A stretch of DNA of 64,000 nt. Source: Candidatus Saccharimonadota bacterium (lineage in GTDB: Bacteria > Patescibacteriota > Saccharimonadia > CAILAD01 > BJGX01). Location: assembly GCA_016191105.1 (NCBI GenBank), contig JACPPH010000008.1, positions 136,951 through 200,950 of the forward strand, given 5' to 3'. The notes under the pieces were generated by a model. That model saw nothing but the letters and a program-made list of their open reading frames with translations. It ran no database searches and was not told the origin of the DNA. Below are positions 5,487 through 38,337 of the stretch, piece by piece; the first letter of the stretch is position 1; the number at the start of each line of letters is the position of its first letter. The translations under genes were made by a program, and so were the position numbers.

Positions 5487-7004
5487 ATGTTATTGGTTTT
5501 TGTGGCCATTGCCGTAATTGGTGGTGGTGTTTTGGGATACACGGGCCAAACCGTAATTAATAAACGGAAAAACAGCGATGCCGAGGCCAAGGCCAAAAAG
5601 GTTTTAGACGAGGCCAAAGAACAGGCTAAAAAACTCGAACTCGAAGGTAAAGAAAAAGCTCTAAAGATTGCCGACGAGGCCAAGGCCGAAGAACGCGAAC
5701 GCCGCACCAAACTCGATGCGCTCGAAAAGCGGGTGGCTGATCGCGAAAGCTTGCTCGACAGCAAACTCGAACAAATTGAACGCCGATCCGAGGCTTTAAA
5801 TACCGACGAAAAAGAGATCTCAGCCATTAAAGATGAGCTGCGCAGCATTCGTGCTAAACAAGAAAAGAACTTAGAAAAAATTGCCAAGCTCAAAAAAGAC
5901 GATGCACAAAAGAAGCTAATGGAAATGACCGAAAAGGAGCTTAAGGTAGACTTGGCGGCCTATATAGAAAAGCGCAAACGCGATGCGACCGAAAATGCCG
6001 AAGAAGACGCCAAGCAAATTATGACCGAGGCCATGGAGCGCCTGGCTACCGCCACCGCTACTGAGCGGCCTATTACCACCGTGGCTATCCCGAGCGACGA
6101 GCTAAAGGGGCGCATTATTGGTAAAGAAGGTCGTAACATACAAACCCTAGAGCGACTTACAGGAGTTGATGTGATTATCGACGAATCTCCGGGTGTGATT
6201 ATGATATCGGGTTTTGACCCAGTGCGCCGCCAAGTAGCTCGCCGCAGTTTAGAAAAACTAATCGAAGACGGTCGGATTCACCCAGGCCGAATAGAAGAGG
6301 TTGTCGAAAAAGTTCAAAAGGAAGTTGACGACGAAATTAAAAAGGCTGGTGAACAAGCCGCCCGCGATGCCAAGGTTGCCGGTTTACCACCCGAGATTGT
6401 TAAGCTCATGGGTCAGCTTAAGTTCCGTACCAGCTATAGCCAAAACGTGCTTTACCACTCGGTCGAAATGGCTCACCTAGCTGCCATGATTGCCGAAGAG
6501 GTGGGTGCAAATATTCAAGTGAGCCGCACGGCGGCGTTCTTGCACGATCTTGGCAAGGCCGTGAGCCATGAGATCGAGGGTAAGCACCACCACATTACTG
6601 GCGACATGATGCGCAAGGCTGGGTTTGACGAGGCTACCACCCACGCCGCCGAAGCTCACCACGACGACATTGAGGCCACCACGCCCGAGGCACTGATTGT
6701 GCGTGTAGTCGATGCCCTAAGCGCTGGCCGCCCAGGAGCTCGCGGTGACACGCTCGAAAACTATGTTAAACGCATGCAAGATCTCGAAAACGTAGCCAAT
6801 AGCTTTGCTGGCATCGACAAAAGCTATGCCGTTAGTGCCGGCCGCGAGATCCGGGTGTTTGTAACACCCGAAGAGATTGACGACCTAAGTGCCATTAAGC
6901 TGGCTCGCGATGTAGCCACCAAGATTGAGGCAACACTAAAGTATCCTGGCACAATCAAAGTTAATGTAATACGGGAAACCCGTGCACAGGAGTACGCCAA
7001 GTAG
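5487..7004 (+). CDS. rny: ribonuclease Y
   Basis: N-terminal TM helix, long coiled coil, a KH domain (GKEGRNIQTLERLTGVD) and an HD domain (HSVEMAHLAAMIAEEVG...LHDLGK). Good RBS GGAAGAGAGGTG. Confidence 0.9.
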   Translation: MLLVFVAIAVIGGGVLGYTGQTVINKRKNSDAEAKAKKVLDEAKEQAKKLELEGKEKALKIADEAKAEERERRTKLDALEKRVADRESLLDSKLEQIERRSEALNTDEKEISAIKDELRSIRAKQEKNLEKIAKLKKDDAQKKLMEMTEKELKVDLAAYIEKRKRDATENAEEDAKQIMTEAMERLATATATERPITTVAIPSDELKGRIIGKEGRNIQTLERLTGVDVIIDESPGVIMISGFDPVRRQVARRSLEKLIEDGRIHPGRIEEVVEKVQKEVDDEIKKAGEQAARDAKVAGLPPEIVKLMGQLKFRTSYSQNVLYHSVEMAHLAAMIAEEVGANIQVSRTAAFLHDLGKAVSHEIEGKHHHITGDMMRKAGFDEATTHAAEAHHDDIEATTPEALIVRVVDALSAGRPGARGDTLENYVKRMQDLENVANSFAGIDKSYAVSAGREIRVFVTPEEIDDLSAIKLARDVATKIEATLKYPGTIKVNVIRETRAQEYAK

Positions 7005-13395: not shown

Positions 13396-13473
13396 TGGGG
13401 TGAGTGATGGGGCTCGAACCCACGACCTTCGGGACCACAACCCGACGCTCTAACCAGCTGAGCTACACCCACC
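13396..13473 (-). tRNA. tRNA-His (anticodon GTG) with encoded G-1 and CCA
   Basis: Folds as GGTGGGTG-TA-GCTC...GAGC / TCGGG-TTGTGGT-CCCGA / GTGGG-TTCGAGC-CCCAT / CACTCAC-C-CCA, with G-1:C73. Confidence 0.85.
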
Positions 13474-13502
13474 ACGTCCAAATAATGCTTCGATAAGCAT
13501 TG

Positions 13503-13516
13503 CGAATAGTTATTCG
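13503..13516. promoter_or_regulatory. perfect palindrome CGAATAGTTATTCG within a conserved module upstream of the tRNA-His 5' end
   Basis: Same 14-nt palindrome recurs at 13808-13821 upstream of tRNA-Arg(TCT), embedded in about 85 nt of conserved flank with TTGAAT and TATTAT-like boxes. Confidence 0.4.
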
Positions 13517-13595
13517 CAATTTACATTCTCGCATTATTTCTCCTATCGATTCAACAAATAGAAACAATTCTCTTGCTGAATCGACTAGAAAAGCA

Positions 13596-13701
13596 ATGAA
13601 ATTTATTCGATCAAAAGCGGGAACGGTTTTGATCGTGAGGAGAATTGCTATATCAGCTGTAGCAATTTAATAAATACGAAAGCTACAATAGCAATTCGAC
13701 G
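13596..13701 (-). repeat. tRNA 3'-flank repeat module (family B), minus orientation, downstream of tRNA-Arg(TCT)
   Basis: Reverse complement matches 15713-15846 and 15924-16065 (CGTCGAATTRCTATTGTAGCTTTCGTA...GATCAAAAC...GCTTTTGATC). Confidence 0.6.
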
Positions 13702-13778
13702 TGGTACCCCCGGCAGGACTCGAACCTGCGACCTACGGTTTAGAAAACCGTTGCTCTATCCAGCTGAGCTACGGGGGC
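13702..13778 (-). tRNA. tRNA-Arg (anticodon TCT), CCA encoded
   Basis: GCCCCCG-TA-GCTC AGCTGGATA GAGC-A-ACGGT TTTCTAA ACCGT-AGGTC-GCAGG TTCGAGT CCTGC-CGGGGGT-A-CCA. Confidence 0.85.
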
Positions 13779-13807
13779 ACGTTCAAATAATACTCTGATA
13801 TTTGGTA

Positions 13808-13821
13808 CGAATAGTTATTCG
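13808..13821. promoter_or_regulatory. second copy of palindrome CGAATAGTTATTCG upstream of the tRNA-Arg(TCT) 5' end
   Basis: Part of the conserved family-A flank (13779-13870) shared with 13474-13560. Confidence 0.4.
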
Positions 13822-14018
13822 CACCTTATATTCTCGCATTATTTATCTCTGCGATTCAAATTTATTCGACAATTTGAATCGCAGAGTCAGCTGCTGGCTA
13901 CTCTTACCAAAGACAATTAGAATACTTTCAATTGTTTTTGGTAATAGGAAATTTTAGGCATCAGCCAAAGAGAACATAAAAGTCTTTTGTTCTCGAAGGC
14001 TAAAGCCTAAAAATGACG

Positions 14019-14093
14019 TGGAGCGGGTAGCGGGAATCAAACCCGCATCGCCTGCTTGGAAGGCAGGCATAATAATCATTATACGATACCCGC
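14019..14093 (-). tRNA. tRNA-Gly (anticodon TCC), CCA encoded
   Basis: GCGGGTATCGTATAATGATTATTATGCCTGCCTTCCAAGCAGGCGATGCGGGTTTGATTCCCGCTACCCGCTCCA. Anticodon stem CCTGC/GCAGG with loop CTTCCAA. Overall very similar to the canonical bacterial tRNA-Gly(UCC) scaffold, with a D-loop lacking GG. Confidence 0.75.
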
Positions 14094-14316
14094 TTAGAGC
14101 CAAAACGCCATTTTAGATGGTCGTTAAGGCTACTTAATATAAGGTGCCAGGCCGAGGCCCACAAGAACAATATAATACTAGAAAACAAGCCATATTTCAA
14201 GTTGGTGCTAATGCACCTATCCTATCAAAAGTATAGCACGGCCCAATACTCGGTTGCATAAGCTCAACGATTGGTGTTTAATTAACTATATAGTAAAAAC
14301 TACAAGGAGTTATACA

Positions 14317-14775
14317 ATGACAAAATCTGCACTTATTAAAGCTTCGGCTGCGGCAGCAGCGCTAAGTAGCTTGGCGCCGCTGGTCGCTCGAGCCGATGAT
14401 ATTAGCAGCACTACCACCGATACAGCCAGCACCGCGGCCGGTACTGCCGCTGCAGGTGGTATATTGGGTGTTGTTCTAATTTTTTGGATCTTGTTCTTGG
14501 CAATTGCGTTAGGATTTTTTATTTTTTGGGTTGTAATGCTAATTGATGCCTTTAAGCGAACCAACTGGCAAGACGAAGGCCAAAAGAATCTGTGGCTAAT
14601 AATACTGATCGTCTCGATTTTCGTGGGCTTGGCTTGGTTGGCGGCTCTGCTGTACTACTTCATTATCAAGCGAGCTCTCGACAAGGGTGCGGCACCGCAA
14701 GTGGCTGCCCAGGCTAGCCAGCCAACAGCTCCAGCTCAACCGGCCACTCCAGAACAAGACAACCAACAAAAGTAA
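14317..14775 (+). CDS. small secreted/membrane protein (signal peptide, 3 TM helices, Gln/Pro-rich tail)
   Basis: RBS AAGGAG 8 nt upstream of the ATG at 14317. Hairpin plus T-run terminator follows at 14792-14824. Confidence 0.5.
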   Translation: MTKSALIKASAAAAALSSLAPLVARADDISSTTTDTASTAAGTAAAGGILGVVLIFWILFLAIALGFFIFWVVMLIDAFKRTNWQDEGQKNLWLIILIVSIFVGLAWLAALLYYFIIKRALDKGAAPQVAAQASQPTAPAQPATPEQDNQQK

Positions 14776-14791
14776 CAGTTTACAAACCATA

Positions 14792-14824
14792 AAAGCGCCT
14801 GAGTTTAAGCCGGGCGCTTTTTGG
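14792..14824 (+). terminator. Rho-independent terminator
   Basis: aaagcgcctg-agttta-agccgggcgcttttt hairpin followed by a T-run. Confidence 0.5.
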
Positions 14825-14839
14825 TATAATGCGAGAGCA

Positions 14840-15577
14840 ATGAAAATTACTCCAATCAAAACCCGTCCGTTAATTCCGCCTAAAGATGACTTGCTAGCCG
14901 TAATAGCAGAAAGTTTAAAGGAGCTGCCAGAGCAATCAGTTTTGGCCATTGCCTCGAAGGTAGTGGCGATTGATGAGGGTAGATGTATCCCGCTGAGCGA
15001 GATTGAGCACGATGACCTAGTGAAACGAGAGTCTGATAAGTATTTACCGCGTAGCTGTGTGCCTGGAGCCCACATTATACATACTCTGAAGAACAACCTG
15101 CTAATTGGCTCTGCTGGCATAGATGAGAGTAACGCCAACAATTACTTTATACTCTGGCCCGAAGATCCAAAAGCTTCTGCTAAACAGATTTTTGAGTATT
15201 TGAAAAGTGAATTTGGAACTAAGCGATTCGCAGTTTTAATAACTGATTCTCATTCTGTCGCGATGAGGCGAGGCACGGTGGGCATATCGTTGGCGAGCTA
15301 CGGCCTAAAGCCATTAAAGGACTATCGTGGTAAAGAAGATATATTTGGGCGAGAGCTTAAAGCCACAATGACCAATCTTGCTGATGGCTTAGCGGCAGCC
15401 GCCACACTGGTAATGGGAGAGGGCGCAGAAGTCTGCCCATTGGCCTTGATTGAAGATTTAGATGTAGAGTTTATTAGCCAACCCTACAGACCGACAGATC
15501 CTGATGGTAGCTTTGAAATACCACCAGAACAAGATATGTTTAAGCCGTTTTTTGATGGTGTAGACTGGCAAGAATAG
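14840..15577 (+). CDS. CofE-like protein (F420-0:gamma-glutamyl ligase family, PF01996 fold)
   Basis: MKITPIKTRPLIPPKDDLLAVIAESL...LAIASKVVAIDEGRCIPL mirrors the CofE N-terminal motif (I-x-G-LP-x-I-x-GDDL...V-x-SK-x-V-SK-x-EGR). Confidence 0.5.
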   Translation: MKITPIKTRPLIPPKDDLLAVIAESLKELPEQSVLAIASKVVAIDEGRCIPLSEIEHDDLVKRESDKYLPRSCVPGAHIIHTLKNNLLIGSAGIDESNANNYFILWPEDPKASAKQIFEYLKSEFGTKRFAVLITDSHSVAMRRGTVGISLASYGLKPLKDYRGKEDIFGRELKATMTNLADGLAAAATLVMGEGAEVCPLALIEDLDVEFISQPYRPTDPDGSFEIPPEQDMFKPFFDGVDWQE

Positions 15578-15635
15578 CTATCTCCTGGGTGACTTTCATT
15601 GCCATAAGATATATGGTAAAATAACCTGGTTTCTA

Positions 15636-15712
15636 GCGCCCTTAGCTCAGCGGATTAGAGCGACTGGCTTCGGACCAGTAGGTCGGGGGTTCGAATCCCT
15701 CAGGGCGTACCA
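15636..15712 (+). tRNA. tRNA-Arg (anticodon TCG), CCA encoded
   Basis: GCGCCCT-TA-GCTC AGCGGATTA GAGC-G-ACTGG CTTCGGA CCAGT-AGGTC-GGGGG TTCGAAT CCCTC-AGGGCGT-A-CCA. Confidence 0.8.
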
Positions 15713-15846
15713 CGTCGAATTACTATTGTAGCTTTCGTAACTCACAGTTACTTCAGCTGACATATTAATTCTCCTCGCGATCAAAACCATTGCTGCTTTT
15801 GATCGGTTGAAAACAAGCCGATTCAAGTTGTCGAAATTTGAGTTGG
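15713..15846 (+). repeat. tRNA 3'-flank repeat module (family B) between tRNA-Arg(TCG) and tRNA-Lys
   Basis: cgtcgaattactattgtagctttcgtaactcacagttacttcagctgacata...ctcctcgcgatcaaaaccattgctgcttttgatcg. Near-identical to 15924-16065. Confidence 0.6.
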
Positions 15847-15923
15847 GGGCCATTAGCTCAGTTGGTTAGAGCATCTGCCTCTTAAGCAGAGTGTCCTGGG
15901 TTCGAGTCCCAGATGGCCCTCCA
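15847..15923 (+). tRNA. tRNA-Lys (anticodon CTT), CCA encoded
   Basis: GGGCCAT-TA-GCTC AGTTGGTTA GAGC-A-TCTGC CTCTTAA GCAGA-GTGTC-CTGGG TTCGAGT CCCAG-ATGGCCC-T-CCA. Confidence 0.85.
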
Positions 15924-16065
15924 CGTCGAATTACTATTGTAGCTTTCGTAATCCATGATTACTTCAGCTGACATAGCAATTCTCCTTGCGATCAAAACCA
16001 TTCCCGCTTTTGATCGAAAACAAAATAACCGATTCAAATTGTCGAAGAAATTTGAATCGAATAGC
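15924..16065 (+). repeat. tRNA 3'-flank repeat module (family B) between tRNA-Lys and tRNA-Pro
   Basis: Second tandem copy of the CGTCGAATTACTATTGTAGCTTTCGTAA...GATCAAAACC...GCTTTTGATCG module. Confidence 0.6.
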
Positions 16066-16142
16066 CGGGGTGTGGCGCAGTTGGCTAGCGCGCCGCGTTT
16101 GGGACGCGGAGGTCGAAGGTTCGAGTCCTTTCACCCCGACCA
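16066..16142 (+). tRNA. tRNA-Pro (anticodon TGG), C1:G72, CCA encoded
   Basis: CGGGGTG-TG-GCGC AGTTGGCTA GCGC-G-CCGCG TTTGGGA CGCGG-AGGTC-GAAGG TTCGAGT CCTTT-CACCCCG-A-CCA. Confidence 0.8.
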
Positions 16143-17929
16143 GAAGATATTTTTGGTAAATCCGCCAGTAAATTATATGGCGGATTTAGTGTTATTTCAG
16201 ATATAGAGTCGTTTGCGGCTCGTAGGTTCGACACTAGCTCGTTGCAAATAGTATCTTGTTCCACTAAATCGTTTGTGTTGAGCAATGTTTTCAGATAAGA
16301 ATCAATGAGTTCGTAGAAATCTTGCTCGCTTGGTAAGCTAGTGCCTAGTCGCTCCAATTCTTGCTCACTAGTTTTTTTGTTGTGTTTAGCTATATCTACC
16401 AGTTTTTGGTAGTGTTCTAATTTGCCATTGTGATGTTTTTTATAATCTTCTGGGTGGTCAACCTGAAACTGTTGGTAACGCATATAATGCTGTGTATTCG
16501 TTCTAACGTCTTTTTTCGCATTACTTAACTTGCGTTTAGCAATAGCTATCTCCTGTGCATGCTTGCTTTTTAGACGTTCAATGTACAGCTGATATGCTTC
16601 TTTACTATTCTTCGTTAGATGTCGTAAAGTCCACTCAATAGCTGACGAAACATATTTGGCTCTAATACTCTTTTTGAGTTTGATACCTTTCTCTCGGTTT
16701 TCTTCTGCTTTATAACGTTGGCAGTTAGTATTCCTGCAATAAAAACTAATAACCCATCTCCCCTTATTTTTGCCCTTTTTAATAGGCTGATGTTGGAATT
16801 GCATTGGAAGATCGCAGTAATCACAAATAACCTTGCCCCTTAGTAGGCCATAACCTAGCTTTTTGGCGTTTACAGAGTTGCCCACGTGTTTTTCACCGTA
16901 ACTAGCTGCCGTACCCTTGTTAAGGGCAATATACTCGTCAGGCGTCATTAAAGGCAAGAAGTCATAAGTTTCTGCTAAATTGGTCAGGTTGTTACCATAT
17001 CTATATAGCCCAAAATAGAATGGGTCTTCAAATAAATCGCCCACCATTTGTTTATCCACTCGCACTACCTTATAAGGCTCGTCTTGATCTTTACGTTCGC
17101 TAAAGTAGGCAGAGTTTAAGAATTCGGCAACCTCTATATTGCTTTTACCCTCCTGTAATCGCATGATTACACTTTGTCTCAATAAATCCCAGTTATATCC
17201 ATCTGGAATAAAGTATCCTGTACTAGCATCAACATAATAGCCTTTTTTTGTTACGCCGTTATATTTACCTTCTTTAATATTGCCACTAGTACCACGCTTA
17301 ACATCCACAGACAACTTATCAGAATACTGTTTCGAAGTGGCAAATAGTATTCCTAGCATCATTTTGCCATTTGGATTGTTCTCAAATTGGTACGTTCTGA
17401 ACTGTAAATCCTGAATCTGCTCATGGTCTATCATTTCAATGACTTCGCCCGCTTCTTTCATATTCCTTGATATTCTGTCGGGCGACCACGAAATTAGACC
17501 ATGATACTTGCCAGTCTTAAATCCCATAATCATGTCGTCAAATATAGGCCGATTGCCTGAGATCTTGGCAGAAGCTGACTCTTCAAGTATATCTTCTTCT
17601 CGTATTGTAATACCTTGTGCTTCCGCTAGTTCAAGACACTCAGACCGTTGATCTTCTAATGATCTAACTTGTTTTGATTCGTCATCAGTTGATTTACGTA
17701 GATATAGTACATAACACCGCCTTTCTTTTGGGAGTATTCGTTTACTTCCTTCTTGCTCACGAGCAAAATACTCTGTTAACTGCTCAACTGTATGGCTACT
17801 CGCAGGTAAATTAAATACGTCAGGATTACCTTCCTTTTGCTTGGCAAGCCTTTTTTCAATTTCAACTACCTTGTCGCTCGGTAGGTATGCAATCTTGCGT
17901 CTTCGTGCTGGTTTTTTCTGATTAGCCAT
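16085..17929 (-). CDS. large serine recombinase (resolvase/invertase catalytic domain + recombinase domain + zinc ribbon)
   Basis: N-terminal YVLYLRKSTDDESKQVRSLEDQ...ISWSPDRISRN (catalytic Ser/Arg motifs), central recombinase domain, Cys-rich CDYCD...CRNTNC zinc ribbon. The last 19 codons read through the tRNA-Pro(TGG) 3' half on the opposite strand. Confidence 0.85.
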   Translation of the reverse strand: MANQKKPARRRKIAYLPSDKVVEIEKRLAKQKEGNPDVFNLPASSHTVEQLTEYFAREQEGSKRILPKERRCYVLYLRKSTDDESKQVRSLEDQRSECLELAEAQGITIREEDILEESASAKISGNRPIFDDMIMGFKTGKYHGLISWSPDRISRNMKEAGEVIEMIDHEQIQDLQFRTYQFENNPNGKMMLGILFATSKQYSDKLSVDVKRGTSGNIKEGKYNGVTKKGYYVDASTGYFIPDGYNWDLLRQSVIMRLQEGKSNIEVAEFLNSAYFSERKDQDEPYKVVRVDKQMVGDLFEDPFYFGLYRYGNNLTNLAETYDFLPLMTPDEYIALNKGTAASYGEKHVGNSVNAKKLGYGLLRGKVICDYCDLPMQFQHQPIKKGKNKGRWVISFYCRNTNCQRYKAEENREKGIKLKKSIRAKYVSSAIEWTLRHLTKNSKEAYQLYIERLKSKHAQEIAIAKRKLSNAKKDVRTNTQHYMRYQQFQVDHPEDYKKHHNGKLEHYQKLVDIAKHNKKTSEQELERLGTSLPSEQDFYELIDSYLKTLLNTNDLVEQDTICNELVSNLRAANDSISEITLNPPYNLLADLPKISSGRGERTRTFDLRVPNAAR

Positions 17930-18035
17930 TCACACCTCAATAATAGTTATTTTCTCACTAGATTACGAACCTATCAAATCCTAAGTGTGACTTATAGTCC
18001 GTAGACCCATAGTCTACTGCTAATCAAGATAGGGT

Positions 18036-18254
18036 ATGACAAAAACATACCCAGAGGTAGCCGCTCAGTTTGGTCAAAGGCTTAGAAAAATTCGTGAATC
18101 AAAGGGCATCTCACAAGAGAAATTAGCCAATGAATCTGGGCTTGATCGCACATATGTCTCTGGAATTGAAAGAGGCAGACGCAATCCGTCACTTATCAAT
18201 ATCTCAAAACTGGCTAAAGGTTTAAACGTAAAGATCACGGATCTATTTAATTAG
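18036..18254 (+). CDS. XRE-family helix-turn-helix transcriptional regulator
   Basis: LRKIRESKGISQEKLANESGLDRTYVSGIERGRRNPSL canonical HTH_3. Divergent from the recombinase. Confidence 0.8.
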   Translation: MTKTYPEVAAQFGQRLRKIRESKGISQEKLANESGLDRTYVSGIERGRRNPSLINISKLAKGLNVKITDLFN

Positions 18255-18426
18255 TGTATGCTTTTTATTGTGTGAGAAAACTACCCTCTGTGTATCATTT
18301 TATAGCGTCAATTAATTCTTCTAACCTGGCCTAATTTGAAGCTATTGAATCTTTTGTTTAGATATTGCATTATATTTAAGTGTGACTTATAATCTACGCA
18401 AGTTAAAAATTAAATCAGGAGTTACT

Positions 18427-18978
18427 ATGGCAACTAAGAAATCTAACAAGACAGCTATTATCGTTGTAATTGCGATCATTGTAGCGTTATTGGTAGTAGG
18501 TGGAGGAGCATACTATTTCATTTGGGGCAACAAGACCCAAGTTACAACAAATAACGGTACAGCAAGTGTAGAGAGTAACACAAATAAGAAACAACTTAAT
18601 GTAGAGCAAATACTTGCAAACGTAAAAGCAAAATATCCTACCGTAACAGAAGTAAAAATATACAGTGAACAAAATGACCCAAACAATCAGCTAGGTAAGC
18701 CAGGGTATTACATAGCGGGAGGTGCTTTTGCAGATTCACGAGCAGGCGGAATCTCAGATAGCAATTGGGGTGCAGAAGCGGGTGGAAGTATAGAAATATA
18801 TCAGACAGAAGCAGATGCAGCAAAGAGAACAGAATATCTAAAGCAGTTTCAAGGCAATGCTTTGCTAGACCCAGGGGCTTATAAGCAGATTGGTGTAGTG
18901 ATTGTAAGAGCATCTAGCAAATTAACTGCTTCACAGCAGGCTGAGATTGTAGATTATCTTGCCAGCCAAGTGCAGTAA
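18427..18978 (+). CDS. membrane-anchored secreted protein of unknown function (island cargo)
   Basis: RBS AGGAG upstream of the ATG at 18427, N-terminal TM/signal peptide, Asn/Gly-rich mature part. Confidence 0.45.
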   Translation: MATKKSNKTAIIVVIAIIVALLVVGGGAYYFIWGNKTQVTTNNGTASVESNTNKKQLNVEQILANVKAKYPTVTEVKIYSEQNDPNNQLGKPGYYIAGGAFADSRAGGISDSNWGAEAGGSIEIYQTEADAAKRTEYLKQFQGNALLDPGAYKQIGVVIVRASSKLTASQQAEIVDYLASQVQ

Positions 18979-19016
18979 TGGTTCAATAGACCAAGATATT
19001 TAATTAGGAAAAACAA

Positions 19017-19655
19017 TTGGGATTTAAGGATCTAACGTCAAAGGCAAAAGCGAAGTGGGACGCTTACAACGAAGCTGCTAAGCAAAGAGCGGAAGAAGCA
19101 AGGAAAGAGCATGAAGCACAAGTAAAAGCAGAGAACGAACGCCGTGAAGCGGTTTTGTCTGGGAAACTTACACCCATTTCATTTCAAGGCTTAAGTTTAG
19201 ATGATGGTGAGACAGCTTATTATGGTGTTGGCGTAATAAGGTTTGCTGACAGAGAGTATGTTACTGAAGTCACAACTGGCAAAAGTAAGAAGAAACATGT
19301 CGTTAGTAGAGGTTTAGTTGGTGGTGTGCTTTTAGGCCCTGTTGGGCTGGTCGCAGGTGCGGCCACAGCAGGCAGTAAACACAACTCCAAAACCACCCAA
19401 CAAACCGATATACGCACCGAAGAAATAGACAGAGGGTCATTTTACTTAACAAATAAGAGACTATTGTTTGTAGGGTCAGAGATATTGTCACTCCCATACT
19501 CTAATATCTTAGCTTTTAGCGTAGAAAGTAATAAGTTGTATTTGAAGTACCCTGAAATGCAGCGAAATGAGTACTTTCAAGTTACAGATAACAACAACGA
19601 GCTTGATTTATACTATCAAGGTGTACAAAAATCGCTCGATAGTAGCAACAAATAG
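19017..19655 (+). CDS. hypothetical protein with PH-like (bPH/GRAM-like) C-terminal domain (island cargo)
   Basis: TTG start in the ORF track. Coiled-coil N-terminus and a YYGVGVIRF...GSFYLTNKRLLFVGSEILSLPYSNILAF pattern like bacterial PH domains. Confidence 0.4.
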   Translation: MGFKDLTSKAKAKWDAYNEAAKQRAEEARKEHEAQVKAENERREAVLSGKLTPISFQGLSLDDGETAYYGVGVIRFADREYVTEVTTGKSKKKHVVSRGLVGGVLLGPVGLVAGAATAGSKHNSKTTQQTDIRTEEIDRGSFYLTNKRLLFVGSEILSLPYSNILAFSVESNKLYLKYPEMQRNEYFQVTDNNNELDLYYQGVQKSLDSSNK

Positions 19656-19682
19656 TATAACTGGTCAATTACTGGTAAACAT

Positions 19683-20072
19683 TTAGGCAGCCCAGCTGTG
19701 GCCAAGGCTGTCTAGCTTCAAGTTATCACTTGTAAACATTATGGGTTCTTCTTCTTTGGCTAGACTATCAGATAGCTTAATAGCTAACTCTATCAATTTG
19801 CTAGTTGATACTTCTGATAAGTCTCTGTTACCTAATTCATCTCTAATAGCTGTCAATTGAGTCCCTAAAACCATCACTCTATGTCTTTTTGTAGCAAGGT
19901 ACTGATCACGTAGCGATTCTAGTTCAATCGCTTTATAATTTGCTAATTCACTTTCTAGTTCATCGCTCCATTTGATTAGGGTGGGTTTGCTTACTCCAAT
20001 AGATTCAGCAATACTGTTGTAGCTATTGCCTTTGGCTCTTAGCTCAATAAACTGCTGTTTCTTCTCATTCAT
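19683..20072 (-). CDS. HTH-domain protein (resolvase/terminase-small-subunit-like HTH; possible recombination directionality or regulatory factor)
   Basis: FIELRAKGNSYNSIAESIGVSKPTLIKWSDELE HTH motif, then a coiled coil. Confidence 0.45.
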   Translation of the reverse strand: MNEKKQQFIELRAKGNSYNSIAESIGVSKPTLIKWSDELESELANYKAIELESLRDQYLATKRHRVMVLGTQLTAIRDELGNRDLSEVSTSKLIELAIKLSDSLAKEEEPIMFTSDNLKLDSLGHSWAA

Positions 20073-20092
20073 AGGTTCTACAAACTTCTGGC

Positions 20093-20446
20093 TTAGAGAA
20101 AATTATTACCAGCCTGAGCATTGTGGCGTTCCACAGCCTGTCTATTTTTTTCTTCCTCTTCTTTAGTCCAGTAGTTTATCTTAAGACCAAATACAACACG
20201 ACTTACGGTGGCATTCTTGTTTTCTTTGCTTATATCGCCACCGCCTTCAATGAATTCCAGCACTTTAATACCAGCTTTGCCTGATTTTTTGTCTGAATGT
20301 TCTGCTGATACTGCTATATCAAACTCAATAGTGCGTGCATTGTCTTTCTCAGAAAACTGAATATCTCTTGATGTCTCTGTTCTAGCTTCATCAACAGCAG
20401 CATTGATCTGAGTTAAAACATCTTTCACAAAATCTTTTAAATTCAT
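20093..20446 (-). CDS. hypothetical protein (island cargo)
   Basis: 117-aa ORF. Its ATG overlaps the stop of an upstream 58-aa ORF (ATGA), suggesting translational coupling. Confidence 0.4.
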   Translation of the reverse strand: MNLKDFVKDVLTQINAAVDEARTETSRDIQFSEKDNARTIEFDIAVSAEHSDKKSGKAGIKVLEFIEGGGDISKENKNATVSRVVFGLKINYWTKEEEEKNRQAVERHNAQAGNNFL

Positions 20447-20619
20447 TGCTCTGTATCCTGTTTATTCTGTACAGATTGGCTTATATCAGGTGTTTGTGGC
20501 TTAAATTCTTCAATATGAACTCTACCATCTGGTGCAATAAATGGCCTATCTTCCCAATTAGTCGTGTCTGAGGGCGACGCTTGAGGTGGCAGTGGTTGTT
20601 CTTGAGGTTTATCTTCCAT
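20443..20619 (-). CDS. small hypothetical protein (58 aa), translationally coupled to the downstream gene
   Basis: ORF MEDKPQEQPLPPQASPSDTTNWEDRPFIAPDGRVHIEEFKPQTPDISQSVQNKQDTEQ, below the ORF-track size cutoff. Stop TGA overlaps the next ATG. Confidence 0.25.
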   Translation of the reverse strand: MEDKPQEQPLPPQASPSDTTNWEDRPFIAPDGRVHIEEFKPQTPDISQSVQNKQDTEQ

Positions 20620-20803
20620 AATTACATTATAGCAAGAATGTAGTTTCTAAGGCTCTACTAGGCTTTACCAGGTTATCAAGCTGTTGTTTTAGATGTTCTA
20701 ATTGATTATTGAGTAACCTATAATTGAGTAGAAGGGTATACAGGGCATCTAAGTTAGGTTCGATTTGAGTATGCATACCCCGACCACGTCATAATACCGC
20801 TTC

Positions 20804-21413: not shown

Positions 21414-21490
21414 CGGGGTGTGGCGCAGCCTGGTAGCGCGCAGCGTTCGGGACGCTGAGGTCGCCGGTTCAAGTCCGGCCACCCCGACCA
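21414..21490 (+). tRNA. tRNA-Pro (anticodon CGG), C1:G72, CCA encoded
   Basis: CGGGGTG-TG-GCGC AGCCTGGTA GCGC-G-CAGCG TTCGGGA CGCTG-AGGTC-GCCGG TTCAAGT CCGGC-CACCCCG-A-CCA. Confidence 0.85.
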
Positions 21491-21582
21491 ATCTAAGTTC
21501 ATCACTTGCTTAATTTAACTTGGCCAAGAGTTGCGTGATCTGAATCGGCGCGCCGGTTAGCCAGAATTGTATATCTGGCGCT

Positions 21583-21602
21583 GTCCGGCCACCCCGACCA
21601 AT
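21583..21602 (+). repeat. 20-nt direct repeat of the tRNA-Pro(CGG) 3' end (gtccggccaccccgaccaat), att-like remnant
   Basis: Exact copy of 21473-21492, located 93 nt downstream of the tRNA. Confidence 0.6.
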
Positions 21603-21652
21603 AGATTACTATAGACTCAGCAAAAACCAGCGTTTAAGTTATACTTGTTTGT

Positions 21653-37803: not shown

Positions 37804-37880
37804 TACTAATACCTCCCTGTAGGCCGAAAATGCGATGCCGGCATTTTAACTTATATTTATCTGTTAATCAAAAAACCACC

Positions 37881-37932
37881 TGGTGACCCCAGGGGGAGTC
37901 GAACCCCCGTTGTCAGGATTAAAACCTGGTAC
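37881..37932 (-). pseudogene. 3'-half fragment copy of tRNA-Glu (anticodon loop mutated to UUUUAAU); tandem partial duplication
   Basis: Near-identical to 38046-38098 (T-arm, acceptor 3' strand, CCA, anticodon arm), but the 5' half cannot form an acceptor/D-arm. Confidence 0.55.
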
Positions 37933-38045
37933 CTTTCGTTATAAGTCAATTAGGGCTTACGCAAAAAGCTTAACGCCTTTTTGCTTCAGTCTCCATTAAC
38001 TTCTTCCTCTTAAATCAAAACACTTTGGTGACCCCAGGGGGAGTC

Positions 38046-38120
38046 GAACCCCCGTTGCCAGGATGAAAACCTGGTGTCCTAACCGCTAGACGATGGGGCC
38101 ACAAAGCAAGTGTTTTGATT
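38046..38120 (-). tRNA. tRNA-Glu (anticodon TTC), CCA encoded
   Basis: GGCCCCA-TC-GTCT AGCGGTTA GGAC-A-CCAGG TTTTCAT CCTGG-CAAC-GGGGG TTCGACT CCCCC-TGGGGTC-A-CCA. Confidence 0.85.
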
Positions 38121-38337
38121 TAGAAGGAACAATAAGCTGTAAGTTGAAATTTATAGCTTGAGCATAGTGGTTAGTGCTATCAATGTAAACTGAAGGCTTT
38201 CTTGTAACGCGACGATGGGACCATCAGCTAGTTTCTAGGCAAAAATAACCTCAAAATTATACCATTTATGCCTATATTCTTCAAGAGATTGGACAAGTGG
38301 TGGGTATTTAGGTATAACTTAAACCATAAGGATAATC

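What the first reader, a model, noticed from the sequence alone, without database searches (positions are those of the whole stretch)
13596..16065. Conserved ~100-130-nt module immediately following the CCA end of three tRNA genes (both strands)
CGTCGAATT(A/G)CTATTGTAGCTTTCGTA...(gtaac-N5-gttac hairpin)...GATCAAAAC-N8-10-GCTTTTGATCG follows tRNA-Arg(TCG) and tRNA-Lys on the plus strand and tRNA-Arg(TCT) on the minus strand, always starting right after ACCA. Two internal hairpins are maintained. This may be a tRNA-linked small RNA, a processing or 3'-trailer element, or a tRNA-targeting mobile repeat.
Basis: seen in the sequence. Interest (0 to 1): 0.5.

Follow-up and report, generated by a model that had tools for sequence, protein, structure and literature searches.

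The report
Hairpin repeat anchored at tRNA borders
A roughly 95-base sequence that folds into two hairpins is copied next to several tRNA genes of an uncultured Saccharibacteria bacterium and its relatives; it always has the same end against the tRNA, matches no described RNA family, and most likely helps cut the tRNA precursor or is a selfish repeat.

Summary
The window (Candidatus Saccharibacteria) has two tRNA operons. All four inter-tRNA spacers start, right after CCA, with one module: CGTC, a long three-segment hairpin H1, a UUCUCCU linker, and a second hairpin H2. A fourth, about 52% identical, follows tRNA-Gly and keeps the fold through compensatory changes (10 of 20 pairs).

The same module also occurs inverted, with its CGTCGAA end against the 5' end of tRNA-His. 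This holds strongly in one relative, weakly in two more and in the window, and by flank motifs in four others. A further inverted copy precedes tRNA-Arg(TCT) in the window.

Other relatives have spacers of only 6-69 nt. One has three tandem hairpin units, and one has a decayed GIY-YIG gene in a spacer. The module has no Rfam match, lies nowhere away from tRNAs in the DNA searched, and gave only chance pattern hits in genome, metagenome and viral collections.

Best reading: a lineage-specific structured spacer element of pre-tRNA transcripts, spread by copying between tRNA borders and probably serving as an endonuclease processing hairpin (RNase Y or III). A selfish repeat that targets tRNA borders is a strong rival. 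Function is inferred, not shown.

The parts
15713..15805 (+). Module copy A, trailer type, directly after tRNA-Arg(TCG) (15636-15712). CGTC 15713-15716; hairpin H1 15717-15771; linker UCCUCG 15772-15777; hairpin H2 15778-15805.
   Evidence: fold; pattern; covariance model, 83.7 bits.
15818..15846 (+). Hairpin H3 (CCGATTCAAGTT...AAATTTGAGTTGG). It ends at the 5' end of tRNA-Lys and is of the same CGAT...ATCG kind as H2 in leader-type copies.
15924..16016 (+). Module copy B, trailer type, directly after tRNA-Lys(CTT) (15847-15923). H1 15928-15982; H2 15989-16016.
   Evidence: 87.4 bits.
16030..16059 (+). Hairpin H3 (CGATTCAAATT...AATTTGAATCG), 6 nt before tRNA-Pro(TGG) (16066-16142). Read on the opposite strand it looks like a terminator.
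   Evidence: I8.
13608..13701 (-). Module copy C, trailer type, directly after tRNA-Arg(TCT) (13702-13778, minus). H1 13697-13642; H2 13635-13608. An orthologous copy lies at L010 9735-9800.
   Evidence: 79.2 bits; L010, 69.8 bits.
13904..14018 (-). Module copy D, the diverged fourth copy, directly after tRNA-Gly(TCC) (14019-14093, minus). H1 14012-13952; linker AUUUCCU; H2 13944-13904.
   Evidence: 73.4 bits.
13473..13583 (+). Inverted, leader-type module against the 5' end of tRNA-His (13396-13472, minus). On the + strand it reads CGTCCAAAT-[H1']-TTTCTCCTAT-[H2' 13547-13583 CGATTCAAC...GCTGAATCG]. It is transcribed as its complement in the Arg(TCT)-to-His spacer.
   Evidence: D2; 21 bits.
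13779..13886 (+). Second inverted, leader-type module, against the 5' end of tRNA-Arg(TCT). It reads CGTTCAAAT-[H1']-TTTATCTCTG-[H2' 13847-13886].
   Evidence: (D2 78% identical to the His-leader copy; I13).

Best explanation
The module is one member of a lineage-specific family of structured spacer elements that sit at the borders of tRNA genes in a clade of Saccharibacteria.

Each unit reads CGTCGAA, then a rod-like hairpin H1 of about 22-25 bp, then UUCUCCUCU, then a second hairpin H2 (CGAU...AUCG). H1 has an outer stem, a 1-nt bulge, a middle stem, a 3x3 internal loop and a tip stem. The CGTCGAA end always faces the tRNA.

The oldest and most widespread copy lies inverted in the 5' leader of tRNA-His. 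In the window's lineage, and in that of L010, it was copied in mirror orientation onto the trailer of the upstream tRNA-Arg(TCT). It was then pasted behind tRNA-Gly, tRNA-Arg(TCG) and tRNA-Lys. The junction is always CCA|CGTC, which also mirrors the His 5' border.

Shown:
- the units lie inside spacers with no recognisable internal promoter or terminator;
- their stems co-vary.

Inferred:
- They are transcribed as part of polycistronic pre-tRNA.
- The H1 rod begins 4 nt after CCA and acts as a cis processing or insulating hairpin.
- H1 guides an endonuclease to cut at or just after the tRNA 3' end. This could be RNase Y, which in S. aureus cuts about 6 nt upstream of a 24-bp helix. Alternatively, RNase III could cut inside the rod.
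- RNase P frees the next tRNA.
- The spacer is released as a folded by-product.
For: Position and copy number:
- All four inter-tRNA spacers in the window carry the module right after CCA. Terminal or single tRNAs (His, Pro-TGG, Pro-CGG, Glu) do not.

Structure:
- In the four window copies, 93.8% of cells are paired and 10 of 20 pairs show changes on both sides. None of 500 shuffles reached this, and slid controls give 31-42%.
- With L010 added, 11 of 20 pairs change on both sides.
- In ten trailer and leader copies, 84% are paired and 13 of 16 pairs change on both sides, again 0 of 500 shuffles.
- Bases around the bulge and internal loop, and the flanks, are conserved while the outer and tip stems vary.

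Family across genomes:
- The covariance model finds inverted copies at the 5' border of tRNA-His: L014 46 bits (E 2e-9), L016/L017 27.7 bits, L015 20 bits, window 21 bits.
- All eight genomes with long spacers keep ..UUCGAC.. just upstream of tRNA-His, together with TCCTCT-CGAT.

Transcription:
- Only the operon promoters are found (TTGAAA-N17-TATTAT upstream of tRNA-Gly; TTGAAA-N16-TATGTT upstream of Arg-TCG). No terminator-like site lies on the sense strand in the spacers.

Enzymes:
- An RNase Y gene lies in the window at 5487-7004.
- S. aureus RNase Y needs a 24-bp helix and cuts 6 nt upstream of it (PMC5449607).
- RNase III binds intergenic RNA of rRNA and tRNA operons (PMC3386247).
Against: - The element is dispensable. 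L007 and L001 have spacers of 6-69 nt around the same tRNAs, and L015 and L016 have only 7-10 nt between Arg(TCG) and Lys.
- The trailer copy appears decayed in L022 and is absent in L009 and L019, which are closer to L010 than the window is.
- The unit works in both orientations only if the hairpin, not the sequence, matters. Yet the flanking motifs are conserved.
- For the youngest copies A and B, the transcribed strand folds less stably than its complement.
- A stable hairpin after CCA would hinder exonucleolytic 3' trimming unless an endonuclease acts. No cleavage data exist.
- Compensatory changes in hairpins can arise through template switching without selection (PMC8794818).
Confidence: 0.4

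Rival explanations
1. It is a selfish, non-autonomous palindromic repeat (MITE- or REPIN-like) that homes to tRNA gene borders. The two ends of a tRNA gene are inverted repeats of each other (the acceptor stem, plus CCA or the His G-1). A border-specific insertion mechanism would therefore place the element in mirror orientation at the 5' and 3' borders, as observed. Being transcribed and folded would be incidental.
For: - The same unit occurs in both orientations, always with the CGTCGAA end next to the tRNA.
- Distribution is patchy and copy number varies between close relatives. L014 has three tandem units, and L007 and L001 have compact spacers.
- The whole 134-nt Arg(TCG)-to-Lys spacer is an insertion relative to the 7-10 nt in L015 and L016, with an exact CCA junction.
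- Spacers A and B are 89% identical although the flanking tRNAs differ.
- Inter-tRNA spacers in this clade do take up selfish DNA: there is a frameshifted GIY-YIG gene in L009.
- Integration scars lie at tRNA-Pro and tRNA-Glu in the window.
Against: - No copy lies away from tRNAs in the 64-kb window (filters off) or in about 120 kb of relatives' loci (default filters).
- No target-site duplication is evident.
- Of 39 long ORFs scanned, none is a transposase or RAYT; the only mobility gene found is a serine recombinase on an unrelated island.
- The His-leader copy stays at the same orthologous site across genera, with conserved flanks and covarying stems. That looks like vertical inheritance under constraint.
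- Only chance hits were found in genome, metagenome and viral collections.
Confidence: 0.3
2. It is a stable regulatory small RNA derived from the spacer. Processing of the pre-tRNA releases the H1-UUCUCCU-H2 RNA. Its conserved single-stranded CU-rich linker, which resembles an anti-Shine-Dalgarno sequence, pairs with ribosome-binding sites or with another RNA. This would work like the E. coli tRNA spacer sponges.
For: - The linker AAUUCUCCU is conserved and predicted unpaired in copies A, B, C and L010; copy D has AAUUUCCU.
- Two flanking hairpins would protect both ends.
- There is precedent: the 3'ETS and ITS of E. coli tRNA transcripts act as sRNA sponges (Lalaouna 2015, as summarised in PMC9514646).
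Against: - In most genomes the family sits in the opposite orientation, where the motif reads AGAGGAGAA and pairs with an upstream pyrimidine run.
- Trailer copies decay or are missing in relatives.
- There is no expression data.
- There is no Rfam match.
Confidence: 0.12
3. It is a neutral by-product of mutation. Inverted and ectopic duplication (template switching at CCA/TGG microhomology, or gene conversion seeded in similar tRNA 3' ends) created quasi-palindromic spacers with no function. The apparent covariation is produced by templated repair between hairpin arms.
For: - The junction CCACGTC is shared by the trailers and by the reverse complement of the His 5' border.
- The long spacers of the minus-strand operon are head-to-head module pairs.
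- Template switching is known to create and maintain hairpins (PMC8794818).
- The element is dispensable in relatives.
Against: - Copy D is only 52% identical to A-C yet keeps every helix, the bulge, the loop and the linker.
- The His-leader copies keep their flanking motifs and hairpin at about 70% protein-identity distances, where neutral intergenic DNA would be scrambled.
Confidence: 0.13
4. It is a small protein gene on the strand that reads AGGAGA-N5-9-ATG. That strand is antisense to trailer copies and sense in leader copies.
For: - A Shine-Dalgarno-like AGGAGA followed by ATG occurs antisense to copies A and B.
- The same arrangement occurs in both leader copies of the window (conceptual peptides MRECKLRITIR.. 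and MREYKVRITIR..), read.
- Most relatives have a start codon 5-9 nt after the motif.
Against: - The start codon is lost in copy C (ATA) and in copy D.
- ORFs in relatives are 1-22 codons long and unrelated in sequence.
- The differences between A and B change amino acids but preserve base pairs.
Confidence: 0.02

Closest known systems
Spacer-derived RNAs of E. coli tRNA transcripts (3'ETS-leuZ and ITS-metZW sponges; RtT RNA from the tyrT 178-bp repeats)
   Same: Non-tRNA sequence lies inside tRNA transcription units and is released by the tRNA processing enzymes. In tyrT the unit is also repeated after the tRNA. (Lalaouna 2015 via PMC9514646; RtT from my own knowledge.)
   Different: There is no sequence or Rfam match. 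This element is a long rod hairpin plus a second hairpin. It occurs in both orientations and at both tRNA borders. No target or stability data exist.
Transcribed palindromic repeats of bacteria (Correia/NEMIS, ERIC/IRU, REP/BIME/REPIN, RPE)
   Same: Imperfect palindromes of about 60-150 nt occur in either orientation in transcribed intergenic DNA. They fold into hairpins in RNA and vary in copy number between relatives. Some are cleaved by RNase III or RNase E. (My own knowledge.)
   Different: Those families are dispersed at tens to hundreds of sites of many kinds. This one was found only at tRNA gene borders, always with the same end proximal. No terminal inverted repeat plus target duplication and no cognate transposase were found.
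Endonuclease guide or processing helices: the RNase Y 24-bp downstream element in saePQRS, and RNase III processing stems in rRNA/tRNA operons
   Same: H1 is a helix of about 22-25 bp starting 4 nt after the site where a cut is needed, inside a polycistronic transcript. RNase Y is encoded in the window (PMC5449607; PMC3386247).
   Different: No cleavage has been mapped here. In B. subtilis the downstream hairpin mainly stabilises the product rather than directing the cut (PMC11780869).
Stable RNAs species 1 and 2 (rnaC, rnaD) in the phage T4 tRNA cluster
   Same: Structured non-tRNA RNAs of about 120-140 nt, of unknown function, are co-transcribed and co-processed with clustered tRNAs. (My own knowledge.)
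   Different: Those are phage-encoded single-copy genes, not a repeated module in mirrored orientation. Similarity was not tested beyond a viral pattern scan that found nothing real.

Membership tests
tRNA spacer-derived sRNA (3'ETS/ITS sponges, RtT RNA) | Lies within the external or internal transcribed spacer of a tRNA operon | tested here: met
   All four trailer copies lie between tRNAs of one operon. No internal promoter or terminator was detected.
tRNA spacer-derived sRNA (3'ETS/ITS sponges, RtT RNA) | Accumulates as a discrete stable RNA after processing | not testable with these tools
   No transcriptome data are available.
tRNA spacer-derived sRNA (3'ETS/ITS sponges, RtT RNA) | Sequence and structure homology to the described families (for example Rfam RtT) | tested here: not met
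   The Rfam scan at E up to 5 gives only tRNA hits and noise. The same holds in relatives.
MITE / REP-like palindromic repeat | Imperfect palindrome present in both orientations | tested here: met
MITE / REP-like palindromic repeat | Many copies dispersed over unrelated intergenic sites | tested here: not met
   A covariance-model search of the 64-kb window (filters off) and of about 120 kb of relatives' loci (default filters) finds copies only beside tRNA genes or tRNA remnants. The rest of the genome was not available.
MITE / REP-like palindromic repeat | Terminal inverted repeats with a target-site duplication, and a cognate transposase or RAYT in the genome | tested here: inconclusive
   The ends of the long spacers are weakly inverted (CCACGTC..GACGTGG). 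No duplication was seen. No transposase was found among 39 ORFs, but only about 64 kb of the genome was seen.
Intrinsic (Rho-independent) terminator | G+C-rich stem followed by a U tract on the transcribed strand | tested here: not met
   The scan finds none on the sense strand in the spacers. The stems are A+U-rich, and H1 and H2 are followed by UUCUCCU or by A-rich sequence.
Integron attC site | R''/R' core sites (RYYYAAC / GTTRRRY) at the base of the hairpin, and a nearby integron integrase | tested here: not met
   The stem base is GAATT/AATTC. GTCGAAT matches the R' consensus only in part and lies outside the stem. No tyrosine integrase was found in the ORFs scanned.
Endonuclease processing or guide helix (RNase III or RNase Y type) | Helix of about two turns close to the required cleavage site in a polycistronic RNA | tested here: met
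   H1 has 18-24 predicted pairs and begins 4 nt (6 nt in copy D) after CCA. RNase Y is encoded at 5487-7004.
Endonuclease processing or guide helix (RNase III or RNase Y type) | Enzyme-dependent cleavage demonstrated at the site | not testable with these tools
   This needs RNA end-mapping or in vitro cleavage.

The most novel reading that the evidence does not exclude
The module is a new kind of non-autonomous mobile element that homes specifically to both borders of tRNA genes. It would recognise the acceptor-stem symmetry or the CCA junction, which explains the mirrored orientation. A nuclease such as the GIY-YIG protein found decaying in a relative's spacer might mobilise it. Its hairpins would be tolerated because tRNA processing excises them.
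Probability: 0.15. Interest if true: 0.7.

Novelty: new variant of a known kind. Interest (0 to 1): 0.45.

Why it matters
- Saccharibacteria and other CPR bacteria have tiny genomes, so about 100-240 nt of conserved, folded RNA between tRNAs is unexpected baggage.
- If the hairpins guide endonucleolytic 3'-end formation, they would show how CCA-encoding tRNAs are matured in a lineage with RNase Y but no characterised 3' pathway.
- If instead they are a repeat that targets tRNA borders, they would be a compact example of selfish DNA sheltering where RNA processing removes it.
- Either way, the element gives a covariance model and a clear experiment for a clade with few described non-coding RNAs.

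Tried and rejected
- **Rfam.** Scans of the region and of relatives' loci gave only tRNAs.
- **Collection scans.** Degenerate patterns were run against 185,579 representative genomes, JGI metagenomes and IMG/VR. Each gave one hit. All three are G+C-rich stretches (at least two look protein-coding) with no tRNA on the locus, so they are chance matches. The window's own genome is apparently not in those collections, so 'elsewhere in the genome' could not be tested.
- **Extending the window.** The attempt through an end gene failed because there was no exact protein on record.
- **Internal promoters or terminators.** None was found in the spacers.
- **Coding potential.** Small ORFs exist on the AGGAGA strand but are not conserved, so this was rejected.
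- **attC, REP/RAYT and terminator models.** Each fails a defining feature (see the membership test).
- **Strand test by folding energy and G-U counts.** Not decisive; the transcribed strand is more stable in 9 of 14 copies.
- **Long leader-trailer pairing around one tRNA.** Only about 3-7 bp can pair, except at tRNA-Glu.
- **L001 terminator stem.** The 11-nt identity between the L001 tRNA-Pro terminator stem and the outer stem of H1 is not significant by my own rough estimate.
Full report
**Context**

The window comes from an uncultured Candidatus Saccharibacteria bacterium. A protein encoded at 14840-15577 is 100% identical to an NCBI entry of that name on a 203-kb contig.

ARAGORN finds eight tRNA genes. 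Six of them form two divergently placed operons:
- Minus strand: Gly(TCC) 14093-14019, Arg(TCT) 13778-13702, His 13472-13396, then a terminator.
- Plus strand: Arg(TCG) 15636-15712, Lys(CTT) 15847-15923, Pro(TGG) 16066-16142.

Near-consensus promoters lie only upstream of tRNA-Gly (TTGAAA-N17-TATTAT) and upstream of tRNA-Arg(TCG). No promoter-like site lies inside the spacers, and no terminator-like site lies there on the sense strand. The spacers are therefore most likely transcribed with the tRNAs.

**Checking the observation**

The three copies are real.
- The 17-mer CTATTGTAGCTTTCGTA occurs exactly three times, against 0.24 matches expected even with three mismatches allowed.
- The repeat finder recovers the same units.
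- Each copy begins with CGTC directly after CCA.

Each copy folds into two elements (z = -4.1 to -5.7):
- H1, a long hairpin made of an outer stem, a 1-nt bulge, a middle stem, a 3x3 pyrimidine internal loop and a tip stem.
- H2, a 9-bp hairpin that follows an unpaired UUCUCCU linker.

The modules are 86-89% identical to each other, while the tRNAs they follow are only 71-78% identical. The spacer, not a tRNA-plus-spacer unit, is what was copied.

**A fourth copy and covariation**

The Gly-to-Arg(TCT) spacer starts with a copy that is only about 52% identical but has the same architecture. One degenerate pattern, CCACGTC-N12-TAGCNTTCG-N16-40-GCTGA-N9-13-TCCT, matches all four copies and nothing else in the window, with 0 matches expected.

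On the alignment of the four copies:
- 93.8% of cells are paired.
- 10 of 20 pairs show changes on both sides.
- No shuffle out of 500 reaches this.
- Slid controls give 31-42% paired.

The bases around the bulge and internal loop and the linker are invariant, while the outer and tip stems vary.

**Relatives**

Both large pattern scans returned single chance hits that lie next to no tRNA. I therefore used the conserved neighbour YmdB to fetch syntenic loci. The same tRNAs are clustered there, but spacer lengths differ enormously:

| Locus | Inter-tRNA spacer lengths (nt) | Note |
|---|---|---|
| L007 | 30, 30, 48, 49, 6 | compact |
| L001 | 29, 69 | compact |
| L014 | 59, 391 | three tandem hairpin units |
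| L015 | 64, 252, 7, 137 | |
| L016 | 57, 134, 10, 363 | a gene lies in the 363-nt spacer |
| L009 | 370, 139 | |
| L010 / L011 | 211, 238 | |

L009's 370-nt spacer holds a frameshifted GIY-YIG gene (Pfam E 9e-13 on a stitched translation).

L010 carries a recognisable orthologue of copy C after tRNA-Arg(TCT). It has a compensatory G-C to A-U change in the middle stem. L022 seems to hold a decayed version of that copy. L009 and L019 lack it, although they are closer to L010 than the window is.

**The turning point**

A covariance model built from the five trailer copies finds the element on the opposite strand, against the 5' end of tRNA-His, in several loci:
- L014: 46 bits, E 2e-9
- L016 / L017: 27.7 bits
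- L015: 20 bits
- the window itself: 13475-13548, 21 bits

When each copy is read away from its tRNA, all share CGTCGAA, then a hairpin, then TTCTCCTCT-CGAT, then a hairpin ending ATCG. In a ten-copy alignment, 84% of cells are paired and 13 of 16 pairs show changes on both sides.

This changes how the spacers should be read.
- The long spacers of the window's minus-strand operon are head-to-head pairs of the unit: tRNA|CGTC-H1-UUCUCCU-H2 ... H2'-AGGAGAA-H1'-GACG|tRNA.
- The plus-strand spacers hold one unit plus an H2'-type hairpin.
- The weaker model hits in the window that are not simply the reverse strand of a trailer copy also lie beside tRNA material. One is next to a partial tRNA-Glu copy, and one follows a remnant of tRNA-Pro.

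No hit with an E-value below 0.1 lies away from a tRNA gene or tRNA remnant in the DNA searched.

**Interpretation**

Shown:
- It is a real, structured, covarying element family.
- It is confined to tRNA borders, with one end always proximal.
- It is absent from Rfam.
- It is variable in copy number and dispensable in some relatives.

Inferred:
- Because it sits in transcribed spacers, the RNA forms rod-like hairpins 4 nt after CCA.
- RNase Y is encoded in the window. In S. aureus it cuts 6 nt upstream of a 24-bp helix (PMC5449607).
- RNase III associates with intergenic RNA of tRNA and rRNA operons (PMC3386247).
- I therefore favour a cis processing or insulating role, with spread by inverted and ectopic copying at the CCACGTC junction.

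The main rival is a selfish repeat that homes to tRNA borders. It explains the mirrored orientation, the patchiness and the exact insertions just as well, but it lacks dispersed copies, target duplications or a transposase.

The other readings are weaker:
- An anti-SD-like regulatory sRNA is weakened because the element usually lies in the opposite orientation.
- Coding is rejected.
- The strand test by folding energy is not decisive.
- Template switching could mimic covariation (PMC8794818).

**Verdict**

The element is a new variant of known kinds (structured tRNA-operon spacers and transcribed palindromic repeats). Interest is moderate.

Noticed in passing
window 16143-20790: A low-GC island (0.39-0.41) carries a 614-aa large serine recombinase (16085-17929, minus strand) whose ORF overlaps the 3' end of tRNA-Pro(TGG). 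At 20779-20787 there is a remnant of that tRNA end (CCCCGACCA), followed by the displaced original trailer CGTCATAATACC plus a terminator hairpin. This looks like an element integrated into tRNA-Pro(TGG).
   Followed up: partly
window 21414-21603: The last 20 nt of tRNA-Pro(CGG), GTCCGGCCACCCCGACCAAT, recur about 110 nt downstream (21584-21603). This looks like an att-type scar.
   Followed up: no
window 37880-38130: tRNA-Glu (38026-38100, minus strand) is bracketed by an exact 15-nt leader-trailer complement (TAAATCAAAACACTT / AAGTGTTTTGATTTA). About 90 nt after it lies a partial copy of the 3' two-thirds of tRNA-Glu (37880-37935). The piece in between gives a weak match to the module model (25.8 bits).
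   Followed up: partly
L009 13925-14294 (minus strand): The 370-nt Gly-to-Arg(TCT) spacer of a relative holds a frameshifted GIY-YIG nuclease gene (Pfam PF01541, E 9e-13 on a stitched translation). It is preceded by a long hairpin, TTCGACTCGCCA...TGGCGAGTCGAA, that starts right after CCA.
   Followed up: partly
L014 9578-9968 (minus strand): The Arg(TCT)-to-His spacer contains three tandem units of about 130 nt. Each unit has a pyrimidine run, a CGAT...ATCG hairpin and AGAGGAAGA.
   Followed up: no
L007, L015, L016 versus the window: tRNA order differs between relatives. L007 has Gly-Arg-His-Lys-Pro(TGG) on one strand and Arg(TCG)-Pro(CGG) on the other. The window, L015 and L016 have Gly-Arg-His and Arg(TCG)-Lys-Pro(TGG). 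The Lys-Pro pair was therefore moved and inverted between tRNA borders.
   Followed up: no
L009, L014, L015, L016, L019, L022, just upstream of tRNA-Arg(TCT): A TATAAT box lies 3-13 nt before tRNA-Arg(TCT). In L014, L015 and L016, tRNA-Gly is followed by a G+C hairpin with a T run. In those genomes Arg-His may therefore be a separate transcription unit from Gly.
   Followed up: no
window 5487-7004: An RNase Y gene (RNase_Y_N, KH and HD domains) lies about 6.4 kb from the tRNA-His end of the cluster. This synteny holds in all relatives that were fetched.
   Followed up: partly
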